NCBI GenBank assembly: GCA_000004985.1
Contig: GG738845.1
DNA: 64,000 nucleotides
Strand: one strand, 5' to 3'
Source of the DNA: Naegleria gruberi
Taxonomy: Eukaryota
This document shows, in pieces, positions 8,043 through 61,965 of this stretch. Every line of letters starts with the position of its first letter. The first letter of the stretch is position 1. The translations under genes and the position numbers were made by a program. The notes under the pieces were generated by a model. That model did not search any database, was not told where the DNA came from, and worked only from the letters and a program-made list of their open reading frames with translations.

Positions 8043-8170
8043 ATATGCATCACAAAAAACAAGCCATTTAGGATTAAATTAAAGAATTCAATTTAATGTA
8101 AGTGTGGAAGCAAAATTAACAAAAAACATTATGAAAATTTAAAAAGAATTCAAATTTACAAATAGTTAGC

Positions 8171-39317: not shown

Positions 39318-40961
39318 ATGAAAATTCAAAATTTTGCGATCATTGTGTTGACAACATTGTTGTTGTGTTGTTTTGTGTTTATTTGTTTCTTGATAAATGG
39401 ATATTCGAAATGTTTGAATCACCAGACAGGCATAATTAATCATGATGTGCACAAGTTGGCACTGATTGATTCCGATAGGGTGAGAGAAATTCCTCTCATC
39501 AACAAGAAGGTACCTCCTTCAGCTGTTATTCTCCCCAGAAATTTGCATCAACAGCTCCAACCAGTTCTTTCTATACCTCCCACAAAAATGACAAAGGAAC
39601 TCGAAATTGAACAAGAGGAAAAAACAATGGATGATTCGGAAAATATCATTGTTGCAAATCCAAATAAGTTTCCACCCAAACCATTACCAGACGAACCAAC
39701 ATTGCAAGGTAATCCCAACGAAACCAGTAATCCATTATGTGTAGATAAACGAAAGAGAGATTACAAACAGGTACCAATCAGAGTATCAGGACTTTTTAAT
39801 GGGGAATTTAGAGATTGTAGCATTAGGTGTGTTGGAGATGGCTATCCAAATCAACCAAGTTTACCTGATGTGTATGTGGGACGAGATGCTCCTCCTGATG
39901 GCTGTCCAAACTCTTTTTCCTTCATTTCTACAATGGAAAATCAACCAATGTTCAAGACCAATATCCACAGTTTAGTAGGTACGACTAATTTAAAAACTGA
40001 CGTTCCAGTTCAATATTTTAGTTGGGCTGAATATAGTTACATGAGCAAACCAAAACCAAAAACAGCAACTGCAATGATGGCGGTTTTCATTTCAAATTGT
40101 GGACCACCAAAACGATTGGAAATCATCAAGGAATTGGAGGAACACGGAGTTACAATCCATTCATATGGTAAATGTTTGCACAACACACAAATGCCAGATA
40201 CAAGAGATGGTGACTATTTGGGAATTAAAACTCGGATTACCTCCACTTACAAATTCGTATTTGCAGCTGAAAATTCAGAAACTGACGATTATGTCACTGA
40301 GAAACTTTTTGGAACATTTGATTCTGGAAGTGTTCCAGTTTATTTGGGAGCTCCAAATGTTAAAAAGTTTGCCCCAAGTGAAAAATCCGTCATTTCAGTT
40401 TCTGATTTTGCGACCATTAAGGAATTAGCAGAATATTTGAAAATGTTAGATAAGGATGATGTAAAATACAATGAATATTTGAAATGGAAGGAAGAAGGAC
40501 CATCACATGATTTTATTGCCATGATGGATATGGCTATTATACACTCTTCATGCAGATTGTGCATCAAAGTTGCAGATCACTACAGAAAGATTTACAACAA
40601 CCAGGTTGGAAATCAAATAATTCCAAAAGATAAACTTGGAAAGGACAGCATTATTGTGAGCGTTAGACCAAGAGGAGAATTCTACATGAAACAAGTTGAA
40701 CTATTACCAAATGAAATGAGTCTCAAACATCTCAAGAGAAAGATACAGAAATTGTATGCTGATAATCCTCTTCCTGTCGGATCTATTCACTCCATTTACA
40801 GATTATGGGACAATAACAAGATACCAATCAAGGATGAAGACTTTAGAAATGGTATTATTCACAATAGTATTGAGTTGGAGGTTATATTCCTTTATCCTTA
40901 TCATCCAGGAAGAGGAAAATTCAATGAGTGGCAACAAACTCACAAATTCTACCTTCATTAA
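39318..40961 (+). CDS. Alpha-1,3/4-fucosyltransferase (CAZy GT10), type II membrane protein. Paralog A of a tandem pair.
   Basis: An N-terminal signal-anchor (IIVLTTLLLCCFVFICFLINGY). The catalytic region has the GT10 motifs FVFAAENSETDDYVTEKLF (FxFENS...DYxTEK) and VPVYLGAP. A conserved extra C-terminal region of about 120 aa is shared with paralog B. Confidence 0.75.
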   Translation: MKIQNFAIIVLTTLLLCCFVFICFLINGYSKCLNHQTGIINHDVHKLALIDSDRVREIPLINKKVPPSAVILPRNLHQQLQPVLSIPPTKMTKELEIEQEEKTMDDSENIIVANPNKFPPKPLPDEPTLQGNPNETSNPLCVDKRKRDYKQVPIRVSGLFNGEFRDCSIRCVGDGYPNQPSLPDVYVGRDAPPDGCPNSFSFISTMENQPMFKTNIHSLVGTTNLKTDVPVQYFSWAEYSYMSKPKPKTATAMMAVFISNCGPPKRLEIIKELEEHGVTIHSYGKCLHNTQMPDTRDGDYLGIKTRITSTYKFVFAAENSETDDYVTEKLFGTFDSGSVPVYLGAPNVKKFAPSEKSVISVSDFATIKELAEYLKMLDKDDVKYNEYLKWKEEGPSHDFIAMMDMAIIHSSCRLCIKVADHYRKIYNNQVGNQIIPKDKLGKDSIIVSVRPRGEFYMKQVELLPNEMSLKHLKRKIQKLYADNPLPVGSIHSIYRLWDNNKIPIKDEDFRNGIIHNSIELEVIFLYPYHPGRGKFNEWQQTHKFYLH

Positions 40962-41088
40962 CTTGTGGTAAAGTTTGGAAAACCACACTTGATATAGATG
41001 TAGGTTCAGCTCAGTGTAATAATTTTAAAAAGTGCAACAACACCAAAAATTCATCCCTGCATTTTCCTCTAAAAATTATTCTGCTCCT

Positions 41089-42795
41089 ATGAAAACTCTA
41101 CAAATTATAACAATAGTACAGACGGCCCTGTTATTGTGCTGCTTTGTTGTTATAACCATCCTAATTAACAAATATTCTCTCCTTGTAAAGGAAATTAATA
41201 GTTCAAAATTACATCAATATTCTTCCCTAAATCTAAATTTGATTAAGCTTACATCACCACCCGAGACAACAATAACATCTTCCATTGTGATAAAACCACA
41301 AAAAACCTCATCACAACAACCTCCGATTAGAGAGCAATCGCCCATTGCACCATCGTCACCTGTACTCACACCTACAACAAAAGTTAATGATAAGGAGGAT
41401 CCAATAGACAAGACTCGAACCAAACTTACGACTTTGAACCTCAGTAGGAGGGAAAAACTATTGAGGGATAAGCAAAATGGATCAAACAAATCGGTCAGTC
41501 ACAACACTGAAGTGACATCCATTGAAAATCAAGACAAGCAGGTATATCAGATACCTCTTAACGGTGGAAGGGAATTAGCCAATTGCCCAGATAACGAGAA
41601 TAGAGATTATAACGAAAATCCAATTAAGGTCAGAGGTAAATTTACAGGCGAGTTGACCAATTGTCCAATAAGATGTGTTGGAGAGGCAAACCCACCAGAT
41701 GTGTTTTCTGGGAGAGATTCACCTAGTGGTGGTTGTCCACACGCATTTTCGTATCAATTTACCATGGAAAATATTAAATTGAGAAAGGCATCCACCCATA
41801 GTTTAATAGGTACAACTGATTTATCTTCAGATGTTCCAGTTCAATATTTTAGCTGGGCTGAATATAGTTATATGGACCCACCAAAGAATAAGACAGCAAC
41901 TGCAATGATGGCGGTTTTCATTTCAAATTGTGGACCACCAAAACGATTGAATATCATCAAGGAATTGGAGGAACATGGAGTTACAATCCATTCATATGGT
42001 AAATGTTTGCACAACACACAAATGCCAGATACAAGAGATGGTGACTATTTGGGCATCAAGACAAGATTAACTTCGACATACAAATTCGTATTTGCAGCTG
42101 AAAATTCAGAAACTGACGATTATGTCACTGAAAAATTGTTCGGAACATTTGACTCTGGAAGTGTTCCAGTTTATTTGGGAGCTCCAAATGTTAAAAAATT
42201 CTTACCACACGAGAAGTCAATTATTTCAGTTTCTGATTTTGCAACCATTAAGGAATTAGCAGAATATTTGAAAATGTTAGATAAGGATGATGAAAAATAC
42301 AATGAATATTTGAAATGGAAGGAAGAAGGACCATCACATGATTTTATTGCCATGATGGATCTGTCAATTTTGCACTCTTCATGCAGATTGTGCATAAAGG
42401 TGGCTGACTATCACAGAAAGATTTACAACAACCAAATCGGTCACCAGCTCATTCCTAAGGAAGACCTCAAAGAAGGTAGTATAGTGGTGAATGTTAGACC
42501 AAGAGGAGAATTCTACATGAGACAGATCGAATTATTACCAAATGAAATGAGTCTAAGACAGCTCAAAAAAAAGATACAAACACTCTATGCCAAAGAAGAA
42601 GCAACACTGGGATCTATTTACTCCATTTACAGATTATGGGATAAGAACAAGACACCAATTCAGGACAAGGATATGAGAAATGGTGTAATTTACAACAATG
42701 TAGATCTGGAAATCATCTTCCTCTATCCATATCACAAAGGTAGAGGAAAATTCAATGAGTGGCAACAAACTCACAACACCTTTAACCTACATTAA
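41089..42795 (+). CDS. Alpha-1,3/4-fucosyltransferase (CAZy GT10), paralog B. Its P/S/T-rich stem is longer than in A.
   Basis: The same motifs as paralog A. The nucleotide sequence of the catalytic core is nearly identical to paralog A, for example acagcaactgcaatgatggcggttttcatttcaaattgtggaccaccaaaacgattg in both. The track start at 41032 is a GTG, so I re-called the start to ATG 41089 (MKTLQIITIVQTALLLCCFVVITILINKY), which parallels the paralog A start. Confidence 0.75.
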   Translation: MKTLQIITIVQTALLLCCFVVITILINKYSLLVKEINSSKLHQYSSLNLNLIKLTSPPETTITSSIVIKPQKTSSQQPPIREQSPIAPSSPVLTPTTKVNDKEDPIDKTRTKLTTLNLSRREKLLRDKQNGSNKSVSHNTEVTSIENQDKQVYQIPLNGGRELANCPDNENRDYNENPIKVRGKFTGELTNCPIRCVGEANPPDVFSGRDSPSGGCPHAFSYQFTMENIKLRKASTHSLIGTTDLSSDVPVQYFSWAEYSYMDPPKNKTATAMMAVFISNCGPPKRLNIIKELEEHGVTIHSYGKCLHNTQMPDTRDGDYLGIKTRLTSTYKFVFAAENSETDDYVTEKLFGTFDSGSVPVYLGAPNVKKFLPHEKSIISVSDFATIKELAEYLKMLDKDDEKYNEYLKWKEEGPSHDFIAMMDLSILHSSCRLCIKVADYHRKIYNNQIGHQLIPKEDLKEGSIVVNVRPRGEFYMRQIELLPNEMSLRQLKKKIQTLYAKEEATLGSIYSIYRLWDKNKTPIQDKDMRNGVIYNNVDLEIIFLYPYHKGRGKFNEWQQTHNTFNLH

Positions 42796-42890
42796 AATAA
42801 TCTTCAATCTAGATCAATAGTCTTTCGATTAGTAATCCAAATATTATTTTCAATAAAACAGAAAGAAGCGGAAAAGTCAATCAAAAAAAA

Positions 42891-43379
42891 ATGCTTGCTC
42901 GTCAACGTCTTATTCTCTCATCAGCCATTCGTACCAACAAGGTTGCTGCTTCTTGTTTGGTTCGTAATTTCTCCACCTCCCAAAGAGTATTTGGAGATGA
43001 AAGTGGATTCCATGATGACTTTAAAACTGTCCGTAAACCACCACAAGTTAATATTAATGAATTGATGGAAAAGAAGAAGGAAGAAATACAAAAGATTATC
43101 GAATCTAACAATATTGTTTTATTTATGAAAGGAACACCACAAAGACCTGAATGCGGATTTTCTGGTGCTGTTGTTCAAGTTTTGAAACTCTACGATGTTG
43201 AATATCATTCCGAAAATATGAATAAGGATACCATGATGAAGGAAGCTTTGAAGGAATATTCCGATTGGCCAACAATTCCTCAATTATATGTTAATGGTAA
43301 ATTTATTGGTGGAAGTGATATTGTTTTGAATTATCATAAGAATCACGAATTCCAAGATGTTTTGGATGGTAAATTGTAA
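42891..43379 (+). CDS. GRX5: Monothiol glutaredoxin (Grx5-like, CGFS active site) with an N-terminal mitochondrial-type presequence
   Basis: The hallmark of CGFS glutaredoxins is present: MKGTPQRPECGFSGAVVQVL..WPTIPQLYVNGKFIGGSDIV. The N-terminus MLARQRLILSSAIRTNKVAASCLVRNFSTS is basic and hydroxylated like a mitochondrial targeting peptide. Confidence 0.8.
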   Translation: MLARQRLILSSAIRTNKVAASCLVRNFSTSQRVFGDESGFHDDFKTVRKPPQVNINELMEKKKEEIQKIIESNNIVLFMKGTPQRPECGFSGAVVQVLKLYDVEYHSENMNKDTMMKEALKEYSDWPTIPQLYVNGKFIGGSDIVLNYHKNHEFQDVLDGKL

Positions 43380-43716
43380 TAATTTGAATAAATTATTTAA
43401 TTGTACTTGAGTAACACCACTTACAATCTAAATATTGTAACATCTGAGCCAACTTCTGATTCAGGCAACCAAGTGAGAGAATCCATAATTAGTAGTTCAA
43501 CATACTCTCTTTATAAATTATTGAGTGATGAAATCAAATTATTCAACACAAGATCCAACAAGCTCAGAAAAATGGCTAAATCAAGCAGTGGTCATTTTGC
43601 TTTTTACCTTAAAACTCATTTAAAACTCATGGAATAATTGATGGTTAATAGTATAATTTATTTGGGTTTGTTATTTTGGGTAGTAGTTGAGTTTTAGAGA
43701 TCTATCAGCAAATTGT

Positions 43717-46700
43717 TTAAATTCTGTTATTTCTCATGAGGGATTGGTAATTGAAAGAGGTTGGGGATGGAGATTCAGTATTATTGACATCAGAGTGTAA
43801 GGAAACCAAAGATAAATCCAATGGAAGAGCAGCTTTTGGATCTCTTTCCAAGTTTTGTGGAATTTTGTGGAAACCAAACTTTTTAGCCAAATCAGTTGGG
43901 TGTTGAGGAGGATTTAAGAAACCACACTTGCACAAGAAGCAATAGTAAGTGGTCATCAATTCAATAACCTTTGGACAAGTAACATTGGAATTTTCCAAAC
44001 CTTCCAAAGTGTGAGTGTTATCATACCATGGACGCTTGGCAGTCATCTTCAAGTCATAATCATCAGTGAAATAGGTTACCAATGGATACAATACATTTTC
44101 TTCAACAACCTTTCCAGTTTCAGTTTCAGCACTTTTATCTCTATTAACAGTAGCTTGATATAACTTTTCCTTCCATTCCTTGAATGGCAATGGCTTGATA
44201 CTGTAACCAAGCTTGTTACCACATTCGAATAATGAATTGAAGAAGAATTCGTGAGGATTGACCAAGTGATAAGCTTGATGTTTAACAACAGAGTCCATAG
44301 TTCTTGACAAGTGAACAATGGCACCAGAAATGAAATCAACAGGAGACATATCCAACTTGGAGAGTGGCATATCTGGATAGTAACCCATTTGGATACAACC
44401 CTTAATCATACGACACAAGAAGTCATCTGGATTCCAGACACCAGTCTTGGCGTGACCTGTAATATAACCTGGTCTGTAGATACAAACTGGTAAACCTCTC
44501 ATACGAGCATTCATGCACAACTTTTCAGCAACATACTTGGATTGTGGATAACCAGTCAAATCTTCGTGATATGGAAGTGTGGAATCTTCATAGACATCAG
44601 TGAATTCCTTATATTGTTCAGAGTCAAAAACAGATGTTGTGGAAACATAGTGAACTGGAGTCAACTTTTGACCAGCACAAGCCATCTTTAAAATTTCACG
44701 AGTACCATTAACGTTGGAGGCCTTCAACTTGTCATAACTGTAGAGCCAATGGACAGCGGCACCATTGTGAACAATGATATCAATAATGTTGGTCATTTCT
44801 TCAAACTTGTTTTCATTCAAACCCAACAATGGTTTAGTCAAATCTCCCAAAACTGGAATAATTCTCATTTCAACAACTTGAGCCAAGTTATTTCTGTTAA
44901 TAGAGTTGACAGAGTCCATTTCTTCTTCTTGATCCATTTCCTTAGAAGTCCACAAGAAGTGATATGACAAGAGGGATTCCAAAATACGTTTTCTGGCCTT
45001 TTCTTCATTTTCAGCTCTAACCAAACAGTAAATCTTGGCAGTTGACTTCTTCAAAAAGTCAGCCAACAAGAATGTACCCAAGAAACCAGTACATCCAGTA
45101 ATCAAAATGTTCTTTGGATTTTGCCAAACCTTGGAATAGGAAATGAAATCGTTAAAGTTCAATTGATGTTGAGGTCTGATAAATGCTTCCAAGTGAGTAT
45201 CCATAGAAACATCTTGAATCAAGTGTTGATTTTTGGTTTGACCACTTCTCAATTGTTCAATAGCAACAGCGAGAGCAGAGATGGTTGGAGCTCTGAACAA
45301 TAATTCAACTGGGAGTTTTTGAGCACCTTCAACTTGATTTCTGATCAACAAGGTCAATGTTGTAGCATTGATAGAGTGACCACCCAAATCAAAGAAGTTA
45401 TCATGGATACCAATGTTATCAGTGTTACCACGTGATAAAACATCAGCCCAAATTTGTTGTAATTGCTTTTCCAAATCATTTCTTGGAGCAACATATCCTT
45501 CTTCATCACCAGAATCCAAAGATGGCATGTGAATTGGATTTGGTAAATCTTGTTTTTTGATTTTACCGTTTGGAGTCAATGGAATCTTTTCCAATGGAAC
45601 AAAGTATGAAGGAATCATATAATCTGGTAATCTGGTTCTGATGTGTTGTCTCAAATCCTTAATGATGGTCTTGATTATACTAGATTCCATATAATTTCCA
45701 TTCTTGGCGTTGAGGGTAGAATTCTTTTCTAATTCAACCTTATCCAAAACAAAGTATGTAACAATACGCTTTTCATTTTGAATGCAATCTTCTCTGACAA
45801 TGGTAACACTTTCCTTAACAAATTCGTGAGAGTTCAGACAGGTGTTAATTTCACCCAATTCAATTCTGAAACCTCTAATCTTAATTTGGTCATCAGCTCT
45901 ACCACTGCATTCAGCATCACCACTAATTAAATATCTACCCAAGTCACCAGTTCTGTACATTCTATCCACATAACCACTGGTCATGAATGGATTTGGAATG
46001 AACTTTTCACGAGTATCCTTTTCCTTACCCTTATAACCTTGAGAAAGATGAGGAGATCTCATGTAAATTTCACCCATTTCACCAATACCTGACAACATGA
46101 ATTTGTTATCACGAGAAGTGAATCTGCTCAATGTCAATGCTTGAACATCTTGCATACCTCTACCGATTGGTAAAATATCCTTCAATTGTTCGAAAGGAAT
46201 ACCAGTTTCAATACACTTTTCACCTGGACGTGGGACCATATAGTAGGTAACAGAACGTTGAGTTTCAGTTGATCCATACAAGTTGATAACCTTAACGATT
46301 GGTGCAATGTCACACAATCTCTTAACGAATTTCTTAGACAAGACATCACCAACAAAGAATGCATATCTCAAATGATTCAATTGGAACAATTGAGATGATG
46401 TGTTAATGACAGATGCAGCAGTAGCCAACAATTGACCCATTGGTGGAGTCAAACAACAAACTGTAATCTTCTTTTCTTCGAACCATTCAGCAAGACGACC
46501 TGGATTGACAATATCTTCATTAGATGGAATATACATGGTACATCCCAAGAACCATGGAGTAAAAATGTCACGTTGCAAAGGATCGTGAGAAATACCAGAT
46601 TGCATTGAGAATCTGTCATTTTCACTAAAGCCAAAATATTGTTTCATCCATGGATAATAGTGAGTGAGAGGACCGTGTCTTCCCAAAACACCCTTTGGAA

Positions 46701-48126
46701 TACCAGTACTTCCTGATGTATAGGTGCAAACAGCAAAGTCATCTTGTGTAATTTTAACATTCAAAGTTGGATCTTCACTCAAATTGGAATCGTTATAATC
46801 AGAGTAGACATTCTCATTAAGAATATCAGTCATGGATTTCAATACTGTTACAAACTTGGTCTTTTCATTGATAAAATCAATGACAGACTTTGGTAATTGA
46901 CCAGCAGCTTCAATTAAAATAACTGCAGATGGTGTTGAAACTTCCAAACAAGTGATAATTCTGTCGGCTGGATAAGCAGGATCTAACATGTTAAAAATTG
47001 CACCACATTTCAATGTAGACAAGATGGCCAACACAACTGGACAAGATCTGTGACCAAAGATTGTCACAACCTCCTGTCTCTTCAATCCCTTATGAAGTAA
47101 GTGTCTTGATAACTGATTGGAAACTCGATTCAATTGTTCAAAGGTAACACTTTCATGATTATCAACCATGGTAATTCTATCTGGTGTTTGTTTAGCCTGT
47201 TCTTGGAAAATTTCATGAATTGGACCAATGAAATCGTTATTCAAAGCTTTATCAGGGTGTGGTAAAACCTTCTTGGCATATTCAGTCACCAAACTGATAT
47301 CATAAATAGAGACATTGCAATTACTCGACAATACTTGTTCAGAAACTAATTTCAATTGATTCAATAATTCAGCCATTCTCAATTCTGTGAACAAGTTATT
47401 TTGATAAATGATACTGAGTTCGTTAGATTGAGTATTGTAGTGTAAATTTAAATCAACATTAGAAATAGGGAATGGTTTGTCCACCTTAGTGAATGGACCG
47501 GCATAGGAACTATAAGAAACTTGAACGAGTAAATTTGTATCAATATTACCAGCATTAGCATTGTTAGACAAAAATTGTTCGAGAATATTCTTTACATTAT
47601 TGAAATATGATAAATGATTCAATGAATCATTGTATGATTGTTGAATATTGGAAAGTAACTTTTTAAAACTATACTTTTCAGTAGCATCACTTTGTGAAAT
47701 ACCTTCAAATGTATCTTCTTCATTGGAAGGCATTGGAATATTGGCTGACAAGATGAATGAATCCTTTTCTTCATTACAATCTTGCAATACACCAATTAAA
47801 AAGGTTTCTTCATATGTATATCTACATAATAATACAACAAATAAGGAGAGAATGAATGAATTCTTAGTAAATAATTGTTGTGCCTCTGAATCTCCATTCT
47901 TGATAAACAGTTCTCTAAATTTGCTACTATTCAACACTTGTTCCATTGAAATGGTATATTCTAATGGTTTATACTCAACTTGGGTAGTAGAGGTAGTAGA
48001 AGTTGATGAAGCTGCTTCATCATTTAACATAACTCTAGGATAATCAGTTGGCAATTTCAAACTTTGATTTTGACTCAACAATTGTGACCAAAACGACAAT
48101 TGTTTTTCCTTCAACAATGAGGCCAT
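43717..48126 (-). CDS. LYS2: L-2-aminoadipate reductase (Lys2-type, A-T-R architecture)
   Basis: Homology to S. cerevisiae Lys2 runs across the whole protein. [96 protein letters not shown] aligns with Lys2 [132 protein letters not shown] aligns with Lys2 [37 protein letters not shown]. The PCP motif is [11 protein letters not shown]. The reductase domain has [17 protein letters not shown] and [10 protein letters not shown] (YxxxK). The track N-terminus starts at a GTG; the first ATG is at 48126 (MASLLKEK...). Confidence 0.85.
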   Translation of the reverse strand: [1469 protein letters not shown]

Positions 48127-48670
48127 GATGCAATTAAAGTGATGATGATTTGAAAAATGTAAATTTACAATGATACTCGAAAGTAGTAACACACTAGTTA
48201 ACTAGTAGTAGGGGAAGGGGAATATGTGTGCAAGTAGCAGAGCAGCAGCAGCAACAGAGAGAACAATTGAATGAATAGAAACAACACAGTCTTGTTGTAG
48301 AGTTGTTTTTTTCGCTCTTTTTCGTGGTGCATCTCCACAGAGACCAAAAGTAAAACGCGAGAGGTGAATCCACATTTTAAATATCAAGCCATTTGAATTT
48401 ATTTGGCGATTTTTCCTCTAGGGATTTTGGGTCATTTCAATTAAAATTCAGCGAATATGTTTAAATTTTCCACTGTGTTGCACTACAATTTACAATGGTG
48501 ATGATGTGTTTGTTGAGGAGAAATTTATAGAAGTTTAAAAGTTGTTTTAAAATTATTGAAAATACATGTATTTCATAGTATTCAATGAATGAAGGCACAG
48601 AGGAAGGATGGGAGAAATGAGGAGTAACAACATTTATGTGACCTCAAATTTACAACACACTTCAAATAAC

Positions 48671-49602
48671 CAAGGGGGGACATAGTTATTTTTAGACAAG
48701 CTACTTGCACGGTAAAGTTTTGAAGCAACCATAGGGAGAAAGGCTTTGCTTTCTTTCTTGATATATACAATAAATGGTGAAATGAAGATTTCAGAATAGA
48801 CAGTCAACTCAATGGTATATCTAAAACTTTTTTCTGTTTTTTTGGTATTATTGTAGTTATTGTGTAATATTAGTGTAAAGTTCCCATAACATTTAAAGTA
48901 CCATACCATTGATATTTTCTCGCCACCATTTGAGAGATAGGTGAATAGTATCTATATAATTATACTCTAAAGAGCCGAGTCGTCAGAATCAGTATTGATC
49001 TTGGTGTATCCCACAGGAGGTAAGTAGTAGGAAATACTTCGTCAAAAAATGACTAGCGAAATTTTGTTGTAAAGAGATGAGTATTATGTCTATATATAAA
49101 CAACCTCAGCCAATAAAAATTCATGGATTCGTTATAATAGATATATATTATCAGTGGTAAAATATTTGTCTGTCAATATGACTTATTAGAGTAATGTAAA
49201 CTTGATGAAAGTTGTTCGTCATTTTATCATTATTTTATAATAAGGAAAAAAATTAGTTGGTAAACTATACTTATTTTTGGAGTAAATAATTGATTTCAAT
49301 CAACTATTATTTCTATAACCGTTTCTGCTAATGTCTATAAACGACTGGAAAAATATGAGAACAAACAAGCATAAATTTATTTATTAAATTAGCACAGGAT
49401 AATAGAATAGTGAAAATCCAGTTGTTTATTCAATTTTGATGGAAACTGATTTTCTTTTCAAAAAATTGTCATCTTATGCATTCATTGAAGCTCAAAAATA
49501 AATTTTTTTATTTATTTTAATTGAAAATAATGAGTTTCTTGTACCATAATATTTTTTAAAAAATGTATGACTTCAACAAATTCTTCACTATGTCCCCCCT
49601 TG
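48671..49602. repeat. A pair of 16-nt inverted repeats, CAAGGGGGGACATAGT at 48671..48686 and its reverse complement at 49587..49602. They flank about 900 nt of AT-rich non-coding sequence between the LYS2 5' end and the next gene.
   Basis: An exact 16/16 match with a G6 run in a region of about 70% A+T. I estimate about 0.04 chance occurrences in 64 kb given the composition. An adjacent direct CAAATAAC word occurs at both sites. Confidence 0.35.
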
Positions 49603-49770
49603 CAAATAACTCCGTAAAATTATAATTGTTTGTTTTTAGAATACTTTACATTTGTGTTTGGCCGTATTACTCTCCTTTTAAATCATGTTGTAACGGTCGT
49701 CTCAATTTCATTTATGACATTTTAACCTTATTTAAGATTTACATTACTCCTGTGGAGGGATTTTGGTTTA

Positions 49771-55829: not shown

Positions 55830-58800
55830 ATGCAAACACTACCAAGAGATAACACTCCTGAAAGTGCAATGAATCACATTATGCAGGTTGGTAATGCATC
55901 ATCAAGATTACTTGGTTGTTCCACCTCAAAGAGGATCTCCTCCACACTAGCCGCATCACTCTGTATGATTGTTGCAGTGGTATGCTTTAGTTCAATCATG
56001 ATGATCTCATCTAGCTTTAGCTTTGTAGAGGGACAACAACAACCACAACTCAAAGTCTGTATCAATCAAACATCTACATGGAAGCAAGACATCTGTAGTA
56101 CCAATATTACAATGACCTATCCTAGTTATTGTCATTATCAAAATCCGTACATTGTTCCCTATCCTCTAGGTTACAAATTATTCAATGATTCCACTATTGA
56201 TTTGCAAACATGTTTAGATAAGAATGGAAATCCACAAGATGAATGGTCTGATGAATGCTACTTCCTCAATTCTTTAAATATCATAGAGTTGGAGGGTTTC
56301 TCCACAGGTAATCAATCCTCTCGTTACATTCTATTTGCTACTAATAGAGGCCAATTATTTGGATCCAATTTCAATGATGGAAACGTGTTGCTTCCTCTCA
56401 TGGGAGATAACAATCACTTTGAACCAATTACAAAGGTTGTGAGCGTTCCTTTCAAGGAAGGAAAGGGTGTTTACGTCATTGGTAAAGCAAAACAACACTC
56501 TATCATGTATTATTATTCGCAATTGGATGTAACTTTTCGTCCATGCACCAATTTTAATTTACTAACCAATGCAGATATTGTTTATAGTGAAATTTTATAT
56601 ATGGAAGATCAGGGAGAAATATTCTTACTTTTAATTGGTGAGGAAACAATCTTCTTTTCAAAACTTGGAGCATTGTGCAATATTGTAGAAAAGATTTATA
56701 CTTATCAATTCACTAGTGAAAAGATTGTTAATGTTCAAGTTCATACTCAATATTATAACATTTCTAAACCGACAGCATCCATCTATATTAAGGATGATCA
56801 TCCATACAGAAATTTAATTAGTATTCAAACTAGCAAGTCTCTCTATTTGATTCCTTTCGAGAGAGGTGATAAGGTTATAAGTGGTAATTCTGCTGGATAC
56901 AATCTAATTTATAGAGTTGGATCTTTGGATGAAAAAACTACCATAAGTGGATATACTTTATTCAAGGAGGAAATTATTAAGGCAACTGGTGGAGAATGTT
57001 CTTCATCGGCTCCAGAATATTATCAAGCTCTCTATATTGGAGTTGCTACTTTTAACTCTCAAACTGGATCTTCCAAGATGACTTTGAGAAATTTGAACAG
57101 TTGGGGTTATGAAAGAAGTGATAATACTGTATGTGACGTGACCATTGGTGAATATCCAATCGATGGAAAGTGTGTCAAAGCATTTGAACATGTGCAAACA
57201 CTTCCATACAAGGTCACTCATATCAAATCAACATTTGTTGATCTTCCAGTTGAAGTAAGGGATCAAATTATGGGAATTACAGCTCAATATGTTACCAATA
57301 CCCAAGCAGCTATTCAATCAGTTGGCCCCATGTGTGAACAAATGGCTGGTGTTTCAACTCTCCTAAATAAGGGATCTGATTACATGACCAATTACAAGGC
57401 TTGTTTAGCAACTTTCCAAGCAGTAATTGAAGGAGCTGGACAATGTTCAACCCTTCTGGATATTATTCCACCAGATACTGTGAGAGAAATGATGCTTTAC
57501 CACTGGGTTCACAACATTTTCATCACCATGGAAGATAATTCTCTCATTATTTTTGGTGCTCAAGCTCGTGCATGTCAATCATCTGTTGAAAGAAGTCTAG
57601 TTGTCCGTGAGTACAATCAATTCAAACTTGTTGGAAGACCTTTGGAGTTGGGTATTTCACCAAATGGTCAACACATCTTCCTTACCTTAACAAGAAAGAA
57701 GTGGGAAATTGACGCCTTAATTCGTTATCATGCCATTTGTGAAACTCTGAAAAAGGATGAGAAAAATATATTCTTTAGTTCATTTGCTGATACATGTAAG
57801 GAAAATCCACCAACTGAACCAAATATTGGTTTATTTGGTTTCTCACTTAGTTATTGTATGCCTGGTTTATACTGTCCTAATGTTAAGGAAACAGTCATTA
57901 CAAAACTAGATAATGGTTACTATACTGAAAGACCTAATTATGCCATGCTTTGTCCAAAAGGCAATTTTTGTAAGTTTCTTCTAATAGCTTTTGTTTTACT
58001 CTTTTGATGTTAATAGGTACAAACGGTGTCAAGATGCTTTGTCCACCAGGATTCTATTGTGATGAAGAGGGGTTGGAAGCTCCAAAACGTTGTACTGATA
58101 ATAATTACAATTGTTTCAAGAGTGGTTTACAACAAGAAAATAACGTGCCAGACAAGGGAACTTTAACATTGACTCCTTACTATCCAACCATTCCAATTTC
58201 AGATGGTTTATTCATTATGAGAAGGGATGCCATCCATTATTCAGTTGCAGAATGTAAGAAAGGTGAATACTGTCCATTAGCAAGAGAACTTCAATTTAAC
58301 TCAACTGAGGATTTTAACACTACCAGAAAGAGTTTGAATTGTCCTGATAATACTTTTTGTACAGATTCCCGCATCATTACTCCAACTATTTGTAAATGCA
58401 ATTTTAGTTATTGTAGTTATTGTGTTGATGGAGCAAGTCAGGAAATTGCCTGTCCAGCAGGTTTTTACTGCACCTCTCCAGCAACAAAGAAAGCATGTAC
58501 AAGTGGTCAATATTGCCCTGAAGGAAGTGTCATTCCTCAAGTGTGTCCTGCTGGATATTATTGTGCAAATCCTTCTTCTTTGTCAACTTGTCCTTCTGGA
58601 CATTATTGTCCAACAGGAAGCATTATTCCAAGAGCATGTAGTTTCCTTTCAATTTGTTCAACCAATCAAGAACATGAGGCTTTCAACATTTTGGGATTCC
58701 TCTTTGTTTTTATTTGTTCTTTAATTGTCATTGTAATCTTTTATGCTATCAGACTTGGAAGAAAGTTATGGAATAATTATATTGATAAGAAGAGATCAAT

Positions 58801-60885
58801 TATTCAAACACCAACTTCTCAAAGAGAATTGATGGAACCAGGTGACAAAAAGCCTGCAGGTGTTTCCATTGTCTTTGATAAGCTTTGTTATCATGTGAAT
58901 GGCAAATCAATCCTTAATGATGTGACAGGTGTAATTCCTCCATCTAGATTGACTGCAATCATGGGACCTAGTGGTTGTGGTAAGACAACATTACTTTCCA
59001 TTTTGGCAGGAAGAGTTTATGAAGGTTCAATCAATGGTACCATTAAGATTAATAATACTATTGATTCATTCGCAAATTTGAAAAAGATTACAGGATTTGT
59101 TCCACAAAATGATATCATGCATCCAAATTTAACAGTTAAGGAAACTATTCATTTTGCAGCCAAGACTAAATTGGACTTTAGATTGGCCGCTAAACAAGTA
59201 ACTTCAATTATTAGTAATGTTATTGAAACTCTTGGTCTTGGTCATATTAAACACTCAATTATTGGTGATGAAAAGCAGAGAGGTATTTCAGGAGGTCAAA
59301 AGAAACGTGTTAACATTGGTATTGAATTGGCAGCTGATCCAAAAGTTTTGTTTTTGGATGAACCTACTTCTGGTTTAGATTCAGTCTCAAGTAAGGAAGT
59401 TATGTTTGCCCTTAATAGAATTGCTACTGAACAAAATGTTACCGTTGCAGCAGTTATTCACCAGCCTAGAACTGAAATATTCGAAATGTTCCATAATGTA
59501 ATTTTATTGGAAACTGGTGGTAGATTAGTTTATAATGGACCAAGCGCAAATGCATTGCCATATTTTGAAAAGTTAGGTTACAAAGCAGATGCAAAAGTTA
59601 ATCCAGCTGATTTCATTCTCGATGTTACCTCTGGTCAAGTTCATAATGATAACAAATATATTGCCTCAAGTTTATCTCAAGTTTGGGAGAAACATAGTTC
59701 TACAAGTTATTTCAAAGTCAATCAGAAAGAACTCTTGGAATGTTCTGATTATGAAGAAATTAAGAGGGAAAATTCAAGAAGAACAACTCTTATCACAAGT
59801 CAATTATGGTTATGTTTGAGAAGAACTTTGATTCAATTCACAAGAAGTGTTTTTGATTTCTTATTGGGTGTCTCTTTGGTGTATATTGGTGGTCTTGCAT
59901 GTGGTATAATCTTTGTAGATGGTTTGCATTACAGAGGACCTCCACACGAAGAAATTATCAAATTATGTCCAGAACCATTAAGATTGAAATGTTCAATGCC
60001 CCTCGATGATCCAATCATTTCTATGGCACAAATCATTCCATTGGGTATGGCATTGTGTGGTGTGATGAGTTCTTTGAGTATTTTCGGTGATGAATTGGTT
60101 GTTTTCAAGAGAGAATATGCAAGTGGATTGTCAACCTTAATGTACTTTATTGCAAAGAATATTGTTCACATTCCTTATATTTTGATTTATCCAGCCATTT
60201 ATACGTCCATCTTTTATATTCTTGCCAATCCATTAGGATCTTTCTGGGAATAGTAAGTAGTACAATTAGTGATCTTGTAATTAATATTGAAAATGATAGT
60301 TATGGATATTTAATTTTAGTTTATAATGTTGCTGTTGGTTTTGGTTATTTGCTTTCCATTCTATTGCGACCATCTGTCAGTAAATTGGCAGGTGTAGTTG
60401 TTGTAATTATCATGACCATGTTAGCAGGCCTTAGACCAACAATTCCTCAAATGAATGACATGTTCTTCCCAATGAATATTCTCCACTGGATTTCCTTCTT
60501 GAGATATTCACAAGAAATTGTTTATCTAATTGAACTTGAAAAGTTTACTCAAATTTTCAATGTTCAAACAAGTTTAGACATTTTTGGATACCAGTTTGGA
60601 AATTGGTGGTCAGGTGTAGCATTGATTTGTTATGCAATTGCTTTGAGAATTCTCGCCTATTTGGCTTTATTATATGTTCCAGATACTGTTTTCATAAAGA
60701 GAGGATTCAGATGGCTCATTAATAGAAGAGTTATTATCAAGAATTGGATTGCTCAAAAGAAGGCAAACAGAAAACCAAAGGAATTTCTTGTTGACTCCTC
60801 ACCTTCAACACCTGTTAACCTAAGTAACGAGAATCTATTAGGAGGAGAAGAACAATCACCATATTATAGAGTTTCAGACATTTAA
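55830..60885 (+). CDS. ABCG-family half transporter (nucleotide-binding domain then transmembrane domain, abbreviated NBD-TMD below) fused to a large N-terminal extracellular region. The ectodomain is a roughly 700-aa unknown domain plus GCC2/GCC3-like CxxGxYC cysteine repeats, then one TM helix before the NBD. Three exons, about 1654 aa, with introns at about 57970..58016 (47 nt) and 60253..60299 (47 nt).
   Basis: Exon 1: ATG with aaaaaaaATG context, an N-terminal hydrophobic segment (LAASLCMIVAVVCFSSIMMISSSFSFVEG), then a long Cys-containing ectodomain. The donor TG|GTAAGT and acceptor TTAATAG| join in frame to exon 2 (..KGNFC|TNGVKMLCPPGFYCDEEG). Exon 2 has repeats CPPGFYC / CPAGFYC / CPEGSVIPQVCPAGYYC / CPSGHYCPTGS and the TM helix ILGFLFVFICSLIVIVIFYAI. 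Then come the ABC NBD motifs: Walker A GPSGCGKTTLLSILAGR, Q-loop, signature ISGGQKKRVNIGIEL, Walker B KVLFLDEPTSGLD, H-loop AVIHQPR. Exon 3 follows a GTAAGTAG..ATGATAG| intron and adds further TM helices (VGFGYLLSILLRP.., VVVVIIMTMLAGL.., WSGVALICYAIALRILAYLALLYV). Confidence 0.75.
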
Positions 60886-61010
60886 ATAAAATCAAAAGCA
60901 AATTTGCTGCAAAAACAAAAGTGCAATTCTAGTATTCCATGTAAATTTTAAAAAAAACGAAAAACGTTAAAGTTTGCCTATTATCATCAGACTAGTAATA
61001 TTTATTAACA

Positions 61011-61877
61011 ATGGCATCTAATGGCGTAATTTTTACAGAATTAAACACTTGTATGAAGTGGAATGATAAATATATTCCTGAAAATCAATTAATTTACGTT
61101 CGGGATGGAACTACAAGTTGTGATGGAGGCTTTCTTGTTCATCACTTTTTGAATTCTTTTATTAATCATGGAAAGAAAGTAACGCTGTGTTCTTTTAATC
61201 AATCCTTCTTTCACTACAATACAGTTGAATTAAAATTAAATATTAATTTGGAAAAGGAATCACAGGAAGGAAAATTTACATTTATTGATGCTCAACAATC
61301 TTTTGTAGATTCATCGGTGGAGACTGGAGATGACTTACTTTTATTTTCATCACCATTGTTAATTACAAAGACTACACCTGCCACAAGACCAACTTGTATT
61401 GTCAATTTAAAGCATAATAATAGTTTGGATGAATATTTGGCTAATTTATTTGAAATTTTAACTTGTGAGAAACAACAATCATCATGCATCATTTTGGATC
61501 ATGTTAATCCTCTATTACAATATTATTTTGATCAAGATGTCAATAGGAAATTGTTGAAATTTATTACCAAATTGAAGAAATTCTATTCGAATAATATTTC
61601 AATTATTGTCTTGATGCATAATCATCCAGCAGATGATGAAAATACTCAATTGACTAACATGTTTGAACACATGAGTGATATTGTTTATAGAGTGGGTCCA
61701 CTTCCAACAGGCTATTCAAAGGATGTTCACGGAAAAGTTGAATGCATTTCATATATTAATGACGGTACATTGGCAAGCTCAAAGAAAGCTTCTCTTCATT
61801 TCAAAACATTTGAATCAAAGGTTTCATTGTTTGCACCAGGTTCTGTTTCGGCTTCTCACGACACTTTCTTATTTTAA
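61011..61877 (+). CDS. ELP6: Elongator complex subunit ELP6 homolog
   Basis: GTTSCDGGFLVHHFLNSFINHGKKVTLCSFNQSFFHYNTVELKLNINLEKESQEGKFTFIDAQQSF aligns with human ELP6 (AKTDGSFLVHHFLSFYLKANCKVCFVALIQSFSHYSIVGQKLGVSLTMARERGQLVFLEGLKS). GYSKDVHGKVECISY aligns with GFCRDVHGQLRILWR. Confidence 0.65.
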   Translation: MASNGVIFTELNTCMKWNDKYIPENQLIYVRDGTTSCDGGFLVHHFLNSFINHGKKVTLCSFNQSFFHYNTVELKLNINLEKESQEGKFTFIDAQQSFVDSSVETGDDLLLFSSPLLITKTTPATRPTCIVNLKHNNSLDEYLANLFEILTCEKQQSSCIILDHVNPLLQYYFDQDVNRKLLKFITKLKKFYSNNISIIVLMHNHPADDENTQLTNMFEHMSDIVYRVGPLPTGYSKDVHGKVECISYINDGTLASSKKASLHFKTFESKVSLFAPGSVSASHDTFLF

Positions 61878-61965
61878 CTAAACATTATCTTTATTTTTCT
61901 GTTATTATTCCTTTCATTGAATTTAATTAGCGAAAAATTAACACAAATTACAAAGAAATCATGAT

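What the first reader, a model, noticed from the sequence alone, without database searches (positions are those of the whole stretch)
43717..48126. Intact Lys2-type alpha-aminoadipate reductase (A-T-R) in a genome that also encodes cilium genes
The 1469-aa protein is collinear with fungal Lys2 through its N-terminal domain, adenylation core, PCP and NAD(P)-dependent reductase domain. Identical blocks include [10 protein letters not shown], SGIxHDPxQRDxFTPxFLG, [17 protein letters not shown] and [19 protein letters not shown]. Lys2 defines the alpha-aminoadipate route of lysine biosynthesis. That route is essentially a hallmark of fungi, with a few protist lineages. In the same window there is ARL6/BBS3 (flagellated organism), GT10 fucosyltransferases and a giant EGF-repeat adhesion protein. 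That combination is unusual and informative about lineage and metabolism. The gene is also a classic antifungal-type target. Its activation needs a phosphopantetheinyl transferase, which is not in this window.
Basis: partly seen in the sequence, partly recalled or inferred. Interest (0 to 1): 0.7.

Follow-up and report, generated by a model that had tools for sequence, protein, structure and literature searches.

The report
Lysine-pathway reductase Lys2 in Naegleria
This is an intact gene for alpha-aminoadipate reductase (Lys2), the signature enzyme of the "fungal" route to lysine, sitting in the genome of a Naegleria amoeboflagellate; it is an ordinary, conserved housekeeping gene of that lineage and fits the old observation that Naegleria fowleri grows without added lysine.

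Summary
Window 43717-48126 (minus strand) is one uninterrupted 1469-codon gene, and all five quoted sequence blocks are present. The protein has the full Lys2 layout: a catalytically dead condensation-like N-terminal domain, an adenylation domain, a carrier domain with its serine, and an NADPH thioester reductase. Every catalytic motif is intact. Its ten-residue specificity code (DPRCFVLRSK) is the Lys2 aminoadipate code (fungal DPRHFVMRAK) with three substitutions at positions that also vary among other Lys2 proteins. The organism is a Naegleria species (78% protein identity to N. fowleri). Orthologues occur in other Naegleria, Willaertia and Acrasis. They form a clade of their own (200/200 bootstraps), outside the opisthokont Lys2 clade and separate from bacterial NRPS modules, so this is neither contamination nor a recent transfer from fungi. 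Function in lysine synthesis is inferred, not shown. The support is that N. fowleri encodes Lys4-type homoaconitase and Lys12-type homoisocitrate dehydrogenase, and that its published minimal medium contains no lysine. The remaining steps (Lys20, Lys9, Lys1, Lys5) could not be checked. The aminoadipate pathway is already known in the related Euglenozoa. Verdict: a new member of a known kind, of modest interest.

The parts
43717..48126 (-). Complete intronless coding sequence of the Lys2-type alpha-aminoadipate reductase (1469 aa plus stop at 43717-43719)
   Evidence: ORF list. Start codon confirmed by alignment with N. fowleri, Willaertia and Acrasis orthologues. TIGR03443 matches aa 13-1412 to model positions 2-1364 of 1390. 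Differences from N. fowleri by codon position are 0.23/0.14/0.47.
47227..48126 (-). N-terminal condensation-like domain (aa 1-300) lacking the HHxxxDG catalytic motif. It corresponds to the N-terminal extension that precedes the adenylation domain in fungal Lys2.
   Evidence: A profile of 84 Lys2 N-termini matches the C-terminal ~270 residues of condensation domains upstream of A domains in bacterial NRPSs at E 1e-23 to 1e-47. The AlphaFold2 model has pLDDT 89.4 and pTM 0.89. Top Foldseek PDB matches are NRPS condensation domains, E 4.5e-11, prob 1.0.
45562..47208 (-). Adenylation domain (aa 307-855) with core motifs A3 [10 protein letters not shown] (470), A5 NLYGSTE (615), A7 YRTGD (724), A8 (742) and A10 Lys855. 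Specificity code DPRCFVLRSK (aa 515, 516, 519, 558, 590, 592, 616, 624, 625, 855).
   Evidence: Pfam AMP-binding and AMP-binding_C. Motif scan. Code extracted with GrsA numbering that was checked against 1AMU residues 234-335. Coordinate check: 46564-46584 translates to DPLQRDI.
45268..45465 (-). Carrier (thiolation) domain, aa 888-953, with the phosphopantetheine-attachment serine Ser918 in LGGHSI (codon 45373-45375)
   Evidence: Pfam PP-binding 2.1e-12. Motif. 45364-45387 translates to LGGHSINA.
43942..45111 (-). NAD(P)H-dependent thioester reductase domain, aa 1006-1395, with the nucleotide-binding motif TGCTGFLG (1010-1017) and catalytic Tyr1198/Lys1202 (YxxxK)
   Evidence: Pfam NAD_binding_4 1.2e-67. 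TIGR01746 thioester reductase 310 bits against a cutoff of 213. Motifs. 45076-45099 translates to TGCTGFLG.
43720..43890 (-). C-terminal tail (aa 1413-1469) beyond the end of the Lys2 family model, ending in the conserved [17 protein letters not shown]. Function unknown.
   Evidence: The TIGR03443 match ends at aa 1412. The tail motif is conserved in N. fowleri, a second Naegleria and Willaertia.

Best explanation
The gene encodes the Naegleria orthologue of Lys2, the alpha-aminoadipate reductase of the aminoadipate (AAA) route to lysine. The mechanism follows from the domain set and from established Lys2 enzymology; it is not shown here. A separate phosphopantetheinyl transferase first loads Ser918 of the carrier domain with phosphopantetheine. 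The adenylation domain, whose pocket carries the Lys2 code DPR-FV-R-K, then activates the delta-carboxyl of L-2-aminoadipate with ATP and transfers it to the carrier thiol. The C-terminal reductase domain uses NADPH to release it as 2-aminoadipate 6-semialdehyde. Saccharopine reductase and saccharopine dehydrogenase would then convert that product to lysine. The N-terminal condensation-like domain has no catalytic histidines. By analogy with fungal Lys2 it probably supports the adenylation domain structurally. The gene is a vertically inherited, single, intronless housekeeping gene of Heterolobosea. It is the likely reason why Naegleria fowleri does not need lysine in defined medium.
For: Shown here. 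(1) The reading frame is intact and under purifying selection. (2) The architecture is C-like/A/T/R and collinear with TIGR03443 over model positions 2-1364 of 1390. That family ranks first, at more than twice the score of the next one (997 vs 451 bits), and carboxylic acid reductase scores only 150 bits. (3) All catalytic motifs are present, including the carrier serine, the NADPH motif and YxxxK. (4) The specificity code is DPRCFVLRSK, against DPRHFVMRAK (54/84) or DPRHFVMRSK (18/84) in full-length Lys2. Seven positions are invariant in all 84 sequences. The three that differ (278, 322, 331) also vary among opisthokont Lys2: T in Creolimax, N in Batrachochytrium, and S331 in 28/84 (numbering checked). 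(5) The N-terminal domain is condensation-like by both profile and fold. (6) Orthologues at 78, 76, 69 and 54% identity exist in N. fowleri, another Naegleria, Willaertia magna and Acrasis kona; the last is annotated 'L-2-aminoadipate reductase LYS2'. (7) In a distance tree of the A-T region (92 sequences, 594 columns, 200 bootstraps), three splits each get 200/200: the heterolobosean clade, the opisthokont Lys2 clade, and all eukaryotic Lys2 against bacterial modules. (8) The flanking genes are ordinary eukaryotic genes of the same composition. From the literature. (9) The N. fowleri predicted mitochondrial proteome lists a homoaconitase (best Swiss-Prot hit LYS4, 615 bits, N. gruberi orthologue Naegr1|80875) and a homoisocitrate dehydrogenase (best hit LYS12_SCHPO, e-124) (PMC8296547 supplement 7). 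I confirmed the former: its first 348 aa score 455 bits on TIGR00139 homoaconitase, against 241 for the next family and 142 for mitochondrial aconitase. (10) The minimal medium for N. fowleri (Nerad et al. 1983, quoted in PMC8068756) contains Arg, Gly, His, Ile, Leu, Met, Phe, Pro, Thr, Trp and Val but no lysine. (11) Diplonemids and euglenids, also Discoba, have L-2-aminoadipate reductase and most AAA enzymes (PMC7052976 supplement).
Against: The TIGR03443 score (997.4) is below the curated cutoff (1030.1). Heteroloboseans straddle that cutoff (957-1042), while fungi score 1700-1970. Bimodular bacterial NRPSs reach 960-1060 bits by summed partial matches, so the raw score does not decide membership. 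Pocket position 278 is Cys here and in N. fowleri, where nearly all Lys2 have His. Homocitrate synthase, the aminotransferase, saccharopine reductase, saccharopine dehydrogenase and a Lys5-type transferase were not found or could not be searched for in Naegleria. The pathway evidence comes from congeners, not from this organism's own genome. No enzyme assay, expression data or genetics exist for any heterolobosean Lys2 in the literature I could search. The lysine-free medium is reported for N. fowleri and was read second-hand from a review.
Confidence: 0.85

Rival explanations
1. The protein descends from Lys2 but has been repurposed. It would reduce a different carboxylic or amino acid, or supply aminoadipate semialdehyde (piperideine-6-carboxylate) for something other than lysine, such as pipecolate or a secondary metabolite.
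For: The His-to-Cys change at pocket position 278 in this species and N. fowleri. The score below the curated TIGR03443 cutoff. A lineage-specific conserved C-terminal tail of unknown role. The downstream enzymes Lys9 and Lys1 were not demonstrated in Naegleria. Bacterial NRPS A domains with almost the same code exist in non-lysine contexts.
Against: Seven of ten code positions are invariant across all 84 Lys2 proteins, and position 278 also varies in undisputed opisthokont Lys2. A second Naegleria, Willaertia and Acrasis keep His278. Upstream enzymes specific to aminoadipate synthesis (Lys4, Lys12) are present in the genus. N. fowleri is a lysine prototroph, which requires some lysine pathway.
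Confidence: 0.08
2. The gene is foreign to the amoeba: either a recent horizontal transfer from a fungus or bacterium, or contaminating fungal DNA in the assembly.
For: The aminoadipate pathway is best known from fungi, and one phylogenomic study called the enzyme fungal-specific (PMC2823734). Lys2-like A domains exist in bacteria.
Against: Identity to any fungal Lys2 is only 32-36%. The heterolobosean sequences form their own clade outside the opisthokont clade, 200/200 bootstraps. Orthologues are present across Naegleria, Willaertia and Acrasis. GC content (0.34-0.37) matches the flanks, and the flanks are typical Naegleria genes. The gene sits next to the same glutaredoxin and GT10 genes on an independent metagenome contig that is 99.5% identical. 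An ancient transfer into the heterolobosean or discoban ancestor is not excluded.
Confidence: 0.04
3. The gene is a relic that is no longer expressed or needed, because the amoeba obtains lysine from the bacteria it eats.
For: Naegleria is a bacterivore with ample dietary lysine. No expression data were examined for this species.
Against: The 4.4-kb frame is open in AT-rich DNA (P about 3.5e-49). All catalytic motifs are intact. Substitutions against N. fowleri follow the order third > first > second codon position. The gene is conserved across at least five heterolobosean lineages. N. fowleri grows without lysine.
Confidence: 0.03

Closest known systems
Fungal Lys2 / alpha-aminoadipate reductase (S. 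cerevisiae Lys2, S. pombe Lys1p; TIGR03443)
   Same: It shares the four-part layout: a condensation-like N-terminal domain, adenylation, carrier and thioester reductase domains. It is collinear over the whole family model. It has the same catalytic motifs and the same core specificity code, D235 P236 R239 F299 V301 R330 K517.
   Different: Identity is only 32-36%. It scores 997 bits where fungi score 1700-1970. Pocket residues are Cys278, Leu322 and Ser331 instead of His, Met and Ala/Ser. It has about 55 extra C-terminal residues with a conserved heterolobosean motif. It branches outside the opisthokont clade.
Heterolobosean orthologues: N. fowleri FDP41_005596/FDP41_010133 (hypothetical proteins), Willaertia magna ABK040_007205, Acrasis kona 'L-2-aminoadipate reductase LYS2'
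   Same: They share length, architecture, start, C-terminal tail and specificity code (identical to N. fowleri). Identities are 78, 69 and 54%.
   Different: This is a different species. The window is 99.5% identical only to contigs of metagenome run ERR1078381. The NCBI N. fowleri models are unnamed and have segments spliced out, whereas the gene here is a clean open frame.
Euglenozoan L-2-aminoadipate reductase and AAA pathway (Euglena, diplonemids)
   Same: They belong to the same supergroup (Discoba) and the same pathway. Butenko et al. 2020 list the reductase together with homocitrate synthase, homoaconitate hydratase and the saccharopine dehydrogenases. The Euglena homoaconitase transcript is among the closest relatives of the N. 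fowleri Lys4.
   Different: No euglenozoan reductase was among the 120 best hits to this protein. A specific discoban relationship of the Lys2 genes was therefore neither shown nor tested by phylogeny.
Bacterial bimodular NRPSs (~2200 aa, C-A-T-C-A-T, some with a thioesterase) that carry a Lys2-like A domain
   Same: One A domain has the code DPRHFV(S/L/Y)RAK and is preceded by a condensation domain homologous to the Lys2 N-terminal domain.
   Different: They have a full catalytic condensation domain, a second module, and no terminal reductase. They fall on the bacterial side of a 200/200 split. Their best family matches are generic NRPS models at 1500-1900 bits.
Carboxylic acid reductases (CAR, NF041592) and other NRPS-like A-T-R enzymes
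   Same: They use the same A-T-R chemistry: adenylation, thioesterification and NADPH-dependent release of an aldehyde.
   Different: The CAR model scores only 150 bits, and on the T-R part alone. CARs lack the condensation-like N-terminal domain and the DPR...R.K pocket.

Membership tests
Lys2-type alpha-aminoadipate reductase (TIGR03443) | Whole-protein score at or above the curated family cutoff (1030.1 bits) | tested here: not met
   The score is 997.4 bits, a shortfall of 3%. Calibration: Willaertia 1042, Acrasis 1020, N. fowleri model 957, Creolimax 1336, fungi 1700-1974. Bimodular bacterial NRPSs reach 961-1060 by summed partial matches. The threshold therefore does not separate members from non-members in this score range. 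I treat this criterion as uninformative rather than disqualifying.
Lys2-type alpha-aminoadipate reductase (TIGR03443) | Single collinear end-to-end match to the family model, ranking first among all families | tested here: met
   One stretch, aa 13-1412 to model positions 2-1364 of 1390. The next family, MxcG, scores 451 bits. Bacterial relatives match only half of the model, and generic NRPS models rank first for them.
Lys2-type alpha-aminoadipate reductase | Domain order: N-terminal condensation-like (non-catalytic) domain, then adenylation, carrier and thioester reductase domains | tested here: met
   Pfam finds A, T and R. The N-terminal domain is condensation-like by profile and by predicted fold. 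No HHxxxDG motif is present in aa 1-300 (sequence).
Lys2-type alpha-aminoadipate reductase | Adenylation-pocket specificity code of Lys2 (DPRHFVMRAK or close variants) | tested here: met
   The code is DPRCFVLRSK. Seven of ten positions are invariant in all 84 full-length Lys2-type sequences. The three differences fall at positions that vary within accepted Lys2. GrsA numbering was verified against 1AMU.
Lys2-type alpha-aminoadipate reductase | Intact catalytic residues: A3/A7/A8/A10 motifs, carrier serine, NADPH GxxGxxG motif and reductase YxxxK | tested here: met
   [10 protein letters not shown] 470, YRTGD 724, [19 protein letters not shown] 742, K855, LGGHSI 914 (Ser918), TGCTGFLG 1010, Y1198/K1202.
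Lys2-type alpha-aminoadipate reductase | Phylogenetic placement with eukaryotic Lys2 rather than with bacterial NRPS modules | tested here: met
   The split of eukaryotic Lys2 (heterolobosean plus opisthokont) against 33 bacterial modules, including distant non-DPR ones, has 200/200 bootstraps. This is a neighbour-joining tree on Kimura distances only; no likelihood tree was run.
Lys2-type alpha-aminoadipate reductase | Enzymatic activity: ATP- and NADPH-dependent reduction of L-2-aminoadipate to the 6-semialdehyde after phosphopantetheinylation | not testable with these tools
   This needs recombinant protein and an assay. No heterolobosean enzyme has been characterised in the searchable literature.
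Alpha-aminoadipate (AAA) lysine biosynthesis pathway | Upstream enzymes specific to aminoadipate synthesis (homoaconitase Lys4, homoisocitrate dehydrogenase Lys12) in the same lineage | tested here: met
   N. fowleri homoaconitase (with an N. gruberi orthologue) and homoisocitrate dehydrogenase are listed in PMC8296547 supplement 7. The half-length Lys4 sequence scores 455 bits on TIGR00139, against 241 for the next family. Its relatives are annotated homoaconitases of chytrids, Euglena and bacteria. This was shown for congeners, not for the window's own organism.
Alpha-aminoadipate (AAA) lysine biosynthesis pathway | Homocitrate synthase, 2-aminoadipate aminotransferase, saccharopine reductase (Lys9) and saccharopine dehydrogenase (Lys1) present | not tested
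   No eukaryotic genome collection could be searched. The supplementary tables held contain no such entries. A kynurenine-oxoglutarate transaminase is mentioned for N. fowleri, but its role is open.
Alpha-aminoadipate (AAA) lysine biosynthesis pathway | Lys5/Sfp-type phosphopantetheinyl transferase to activate the carrier domain | not tested
   None was found in the window's 30 scanned ORFs. A 4'-phosphopantetheinyl transferase (g8662) is listed for N. fowleri in PMC8296547 Table S9, among genes not found in N. gruberi.
Alpha-aminoadipate (AAA) lysine biosynthesis pathway | Organism grows without exogenous lysine | tested here: met
   The minimal medium for N. fowleri lacks lysine (Nerad et al. 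1983, as quoted in PMC8068756). The evidence is second-hand and for a congener.
Carboxylic acid reductase (NF041592) | Full-length match to the CAR model above its cutoff (1300 bits) | tested here: not met
   The score is 150.5 bits, and the best stretch covers only aa 902-1293.

The most novel reading that the evidence does not exclude
The whole fungal-type aminoadipate pathway may be an ancestral trait of Discoba, and possibly of early eukaryotes, retained vertically in Heterolobosea, Euglenozoa and opisthokonts rather than being a fungal invention. On that reading Naegleria, including the brain-eating N. fowleri, makes its own lysine through an enzyme humans lack. Lys2 and its activating transferase would then be selective targets, and a 1983 nutritional observation would gain a genetic explanation.
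Probability: 0.35. Interest if true: 0.5.

Novelty: new member of a known kind. Interest (0 to 1): 0.3.

Why it matters
It adds a cleanly resolved, full-length Lys2 from a Naegleria species to a family usually treated as a fungal hallmark. It also shows that the gene is conserved across Heterolobosea as a clade of its own. With Lys4 and Lys12 in N. fowleri and that species' growth in lysine-free medium, it gives a coherent account of lysine prototrophy in these amoebae. This is useful for metabolic reconstruction. It also supports correcting the public N. fowleri models, which are unnamed and mis-spliced, and it bears on the debate over whether the aminoadipate pathway is ancient in eukaryotes. 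As a drug target the value is limited, because a pathogen in brain tissue has access to host lysine. None of this overturns current understanding: the pathway is already documented in the related Euglenozoa, and the reductase has been reported to have a patchy distribution among eukaryotes.

Tried and rejected
- **Raw TIGR03443 score as a membership test.** I abandoned this after finding that bimodular bacterial NRPSs reach the same score by summed partial matches.
- **The HDPxQRD motif as a Lys2 marker.** It is present in 83/83 full-length hits, but bacterial A domains of about 2200-aa NRPSs carry it too. My first tree grouping was therefore wrong and I redid it by architecture.
- **Exact-sequence look-up of the protein.** It is not on record.
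- **Synteny with N. fowleri and Willaertia.** There is no conserved neighbourhood beyond an Arf-family gene near Lys2 in both of those loci.
- **Literature on Naegleria with aminoadipate, saccharopine, lysine biosynthesis or auxotrophy.** Nothing direct turned up. Torruella et al. 2009 and Fulton et al. 1984 are not held.
- **Finding the N. fowleri Lys4 relatives of this organism.** The protein search returned fungal, Euglena and bacterial homoaconitases and one 86%-identical fragment. It did not return the Naegleria full-length models, so database coverage of Naegleria is patchy and absence of a hit means little.
- **Searching for Lys20, Lys9, Lys1 and Lys5 in Naegleria.** I did not attempt this. 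No Naegleria query sequence was available, and a fungal query would fill the 120-hit list with fungi.
- **Upstream region 48193-49770.** It holds no convincing ORF.

Full report
**Observation.** The window holds an open reading frame on the minus strand from 48192 to 43717. Homologues from N. fowleri, a second Naegleria, Willaertia and Acrasis begin at the same methionine (M(A)ASLLKEKQ), so this is the true start. At the window's 33.9% GC, the chance of 1469 consecutive sense codons is about 3.5e-49. The only addition is the strand, which is minus.

**Anatomy.**
- Pfam finds AMP-binding (307-698), AMP-binding_C (759-855), PP-binding (888-953) and NAD_binding_4 (1009-1270).
- The catalytic motifs are intact: A3 [10 protein letters not shown], A5 NLYGSTE, A7 YRTGD, A8 [19 protein letters not shown] and A10 Lys855. 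The carrier motif LGGHSI has Ser918, the reductase has the nucleotide motif TGCTGFLG, and it has the Tyr1198/Lys1202 pair.
- Pfam reports nothing for the first 300 residues at E <= 0.01, but they form a real domain. A profile built from 84 Lys2 N-termini matches, end to end, the last ~270 residues of the condensation domains that precede adenylation domains in bacterial NRPSs (E 1e-23 to 1e-47).
- An AlphaFold2 model of residues 1-300 is confident (pLDDT 89.4, pTM 0.89). Its best matches among solved structures are NRPS condensation domains (Foldseek E 4.5e-11, probability 1.0).
- The stretch has no HHxxxDG motif. It begins at the LPTDYPR motif, which the bacterial alignments place about 190-260 residues into the condensation domain. 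It is therefore a non-catalytic remnant. From memory, not checked here: fungal Lys2 has such an N-terminal extension, and it has been reported to be needed for adenylation activity.
- The last ~55 residues lie beyond the family model and end in [17 protein letters not shown], a tail conserved in Naegleria and Willaertia.

**Which family.** NCBIfam's equivalog model for L-aminoadipate-semialdehyde dehydrogenase (TIGR03443) is the top match at 997.4 bits. It matches in one collinear stretch covering model positions 2-1364 of 1390. The next family (MxcG) scores 451 bits and the carboxylic acid reductase model only 150. The score is just below the curated cutoff of 1030.1, so I calibrated it:

| Source | TIGR03443 score (bits) |
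|---|---|
| Fungal Lys2 | 1700-1974 |
| Creolimax (ichthyosporean) | 1336 |
| Willaertia | 1042 |
| Acrasis | 1020 |
| This protein | 997.4 |
| N. fowleri model P0003 | 957 |
| Bimodular bacterial NRPSs | 961-1060 (summed half-length matches) |

The raw score therefore does not discriminate in this range. What sets this protein apart is the end-to-end single match and the first rank of the family.

**Specificity code.** I extracted the ten-residue adenylation code after checking the GrsA numbering against the 1AMU sequence (residues 234-335 matched exactly).
- The code is DPRCFVLRSK.
- Among 84 full-length Lys2-type proteins it is DPRHFVMRAK in 54 and DPRHFVMRSK in 18.
- Seven positions (D235, P236, R239, F299, V301, R330, K517) are invariant in all 84.
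- The three positions where this protein differs also vary within accepted Lys2. Position 278 is T in Creolimax and N in Batrachochytrium. Position 322 is L or I in all heteroloboseans. Position 331 is S in 28 of 84.
- This is the aminoadipate pocket with lineage-specific variation.
- One detail stays unexplained. Cys278 occurs in this species and in N. fowleri, but a second Naegleria, Willaertia and Acrasis keep His.

**Organism and relatives.**
- The closest proteins are from N. fowleri (78% identity), an unnamed Naegleria in an ENA assembly (76%), Willaertia magna (69%) and Acrasis kona (54%). The Acrasis protein is annotated 'L-2-aminoadipate reductase LYS2'. Full-length fungal Lys2 follows at 32-36%.
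- The exact protein is not on record.
- The neighbouring glutaredoxin and ELP6 genes are found, residue for residue, on contigs of metagenome assembly ERZ929261 (run ERR1078381). Those contigs are 99.5% identical to the window in DNA. One of them carries the same GT10-glutaredoxin-Lys2 arrangement, cut off by the contig end.
- The window is therefore from a Naegleria species distinct from N. fowleri (75.7% DNA identity across the gene).
- The two NCBI N. fowleri entries are the same gene (99% identical to each other), are named only 'hypothetical protein', and have segments spliced out. One lacks the stretch containing the NADPH motif. The frame in that assembly breaks after 991 codons, while a Logan assembly gives an intact 1473-residue protein.

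**Phylogeny.** I built a neighbour-joining tree with Kimura distances on the adenylation-carrier region (92 sequences, 594 columns, 200 bootstraps). Three splits each receive 200/200 support:
- The heterolobosean sequences.
- The opisthokont Lys2 sequences.
- All eukaryotic Lys2 against 33 bacterial modules, which include distant modules with unrelated codes.

The gene is not nested within fungi, so a recent fungal transfer or fungal contamination is excluded. The flanks agree: composition matches, and the neighbours are ordinary eukaryotic genes, including actin, ARL6, Sec10, ELP6, TAF13, an ABC transporter and a mitochondrial-type glutaredoxin. Differences from N. fowleri by codon position are 0.23, 0.14 and 0.47, the signature of purifying selection. 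An ancient transfer into the heterolobosean or discoban ancestor cannot be excluded with a distance tree and this sampling.

**Does it serve lysine synthesis?** This is the inferred step. I could not search the genome of the organism, and the protein database covers Naegleria only patchily. A search with an N. fowleri protein did not even return that protein's own full-length model. Three lines of indirect evidence support the role.
1. The predicted mitochondrial proteome of N. fowleri (Herman et al. 2021, PMC8296547, supplement 7) lists a homoaconitase and a homoisocitrate dehydrogenase. The homoaconitase (EC 4.2.1.36) has LYS4 as its best Swiss-Prot hit at 615 bits and an N. gruberi orthologue, Naegr1|80875. 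The dehydrogenase has LYS12_SCHPO as its best hit at e-124. I scored the first 348 residues of the homoaconitase: 455 bits on TIGR00139, covering only half the model, against 241 for the next family and 142 for mitochondrial aconitase. Its nearest relatives are annotated homoaconitases of chytrids, Euglena and bacteria. In fungi these two enzymes serve the aminoadipate route.
2. [quoted passage not shown] It contains no lysine. N. fowleri therefore makes lysine.
3. In the related Euglenozoa, diplonemids and euglenids have the reductase and most other enzymes of the route (Butenko et al. 2020, PMC7052976 supplement).

Lys2 consumes ATP and NADPH and works only in the reductive direction (established enzymology). 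It therefore cannot be explained by lysine catabolism, which uses a different semialdehyde dehydrogenase.

**Mechanism.** The steps follow from the domain set and from established Lys2 enzymology:
1. A phosphopantetheinyl transferase, not in this window, converts Ser918 to the holo form.
2. The adenylation domain forms aminoadipoyl-AMP at the delta-carboxyl and loads it on the carrier thiol.
3. The reductase domain transfers hydride from NADPH and releases 2-aminoadipate 6-semialdehyde.
4. Saccharopine reductase and saccharopine dehydrogenase complete lysine.

The domains, motifs and pocket are shown here. The substrate, the chemistry and the pathway role are inferred.

**Comparison with what is known.** The aminoadipate route is classically fungal and euglenid (PMC3846528). 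One phylogenomic study still called the reductase fungal-specific in 2010 (PMC2823734). A survey by Torruella et al. 2009, which I could not read, is cited as showing a spotty distribution among eukaryotes (PMC3905944). I found no paper in the searchable library that connects Naegleria with aminoadipate, saccharopine or lysine biosynthesis. The finding is thus a new, well-resolved member of a known enzyme family in a lineage where orthologues are already deposited, and in one case named, but not discussed. Flagellated chytrid fungi also carry Lys2, and here the pairing simply reflects an amoeboflagellate.

**Verdict.** I put 0.85 on a bona fide Lys2 orthologue working in lysine biosynthesis. 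Rivals are repurposed function (0.08), foreign origin (0.04) and relic (0.03). Novelty: new member of a known kind. Interest: 0.3. The gene is useful for metabolic reconstruction, for correcting N. fowleri annotation and for the history of the pathway, but it is not surprising to a specialist.

Noticed in passing
P0018, P0023, P0031, P0034, P0036, P0050, P0060 (bacterial proteins): A set of ~2200-aa bimodular bacterial NRPSs carries one adenylation domain with a near-Lys2 specificity code, DPRHFV(S/L/Y)RAK. Each is preceded by a condensation domain homologous to the Lys2 N-terminal domain. They may activate aminoadipate or a similar acid, and they look like the bacterial sister group of Lys2. 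They also score 960-1060 bits on TIGR03443, around its cutoff.
   Followed up: partly
L001 10001-14421 (N. fowleri VFQX01000044.1); proteins P0003, P0004, P0001: The public N. fowleri Lys2 models (FDP41_005596, FDP41_010133) are named only 'hypothetical protein' and have internal segments spliced out. P0003 lacks the stretch that holds the NADPH-binding motif. The frame in that assembly breaks after 991 codons, whereas a Logan assembly gives an intact 1473-aa protein. This is probably an assembly indel plus a compensating false intron.
   Followed up: partly
window 46453-46455 (codon of Cys558, specificity position 278): The substrate-pocket residue that is His in 78 of 84 Lys2 proteins is Cys in this species and in N. 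fowleri. It is His in a second Naegleria (P0002), Willaertia and Acrasis. That implies either two independent two-nucleotide changes or a change followed by a reversion. The functional meaning is unknown.
   Followed up: no
window 43720-43890 (-): A ~55-residue C-terminal tail lies beyond the Lys2 family model and ends in [16 protein letters not shown](I/L). It is conserved in Naegleria and Willaertia and partly in Acrasis (QGLMRNNR). It is not a canonical peroxisomal signal, because N. fowleri has a further residue after it. Its role is unknown.
   Followed up: no
window 39318-40961 (+) and 41032-42795 (+): Two tandem GT10 (fucosyltransferase) genes lie directly upstream of the glutaredoxin and Lys2 genes. 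A metagenome contig fragment matches one copy at 97.5% and the other at 88.5%, so they are fairly recent tandem duplicates.
   Followed up: partly
window 41910-47610 and 58591-62719; loci L003, L004, L005: The window is about 99.5% identical to contigs of ENA metagenome assembly ERZ929261 (run ERR1078381, project PRJEB11402). The same or a very closely related Naegleria strain is therefore present in that sample. I did not determine what the sample is.
   Followed up: partly
window 7951-8043 (-): This is the single tRNA gene in the window (Rfam 47.4 bits). It is unusually long at 91-93 nt, and ARAGORN could not assign an anticodon. It probably contains an intron.
   Followed up: no
window 42891-43379 (+): A 162-aa monothiol glutaredoxin lies just 3' of Lys2. 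It is the counterpart of the N. fowleri mitochondrial Grx5-like iron-sulfur assembly protein listed in Herman et al. 2021. It is not adjacent to Lys2 in the N. fowleri locus.
   Followed up: partly
window 16269-20204 (-), 12188-14722 (+), 55830-58007 (+): Three long open reading frames (1311, 844 and 725 aa) have no Pfam family at E <= 0.001.
   Followed up: no
window 24525-32594 (+): The 2689-aa protein combines teneurin-type EGF repeats with a REJ domain (PF02010, 4e-35), the module known from polycystin-1 and sea-urchin receptor for egg jelly. This is an unusual pairing for a protist surface protein.
   Followed up: no
PMC8296547 Table S9: A 4'-phosphopantetheinyl transferase (g8662) is listed among genes found in N. 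fowleri but not in N. gruberi. If that is correct, a different transferase must activate Lys2 in N. gruberi-like species.
   Followed up: no
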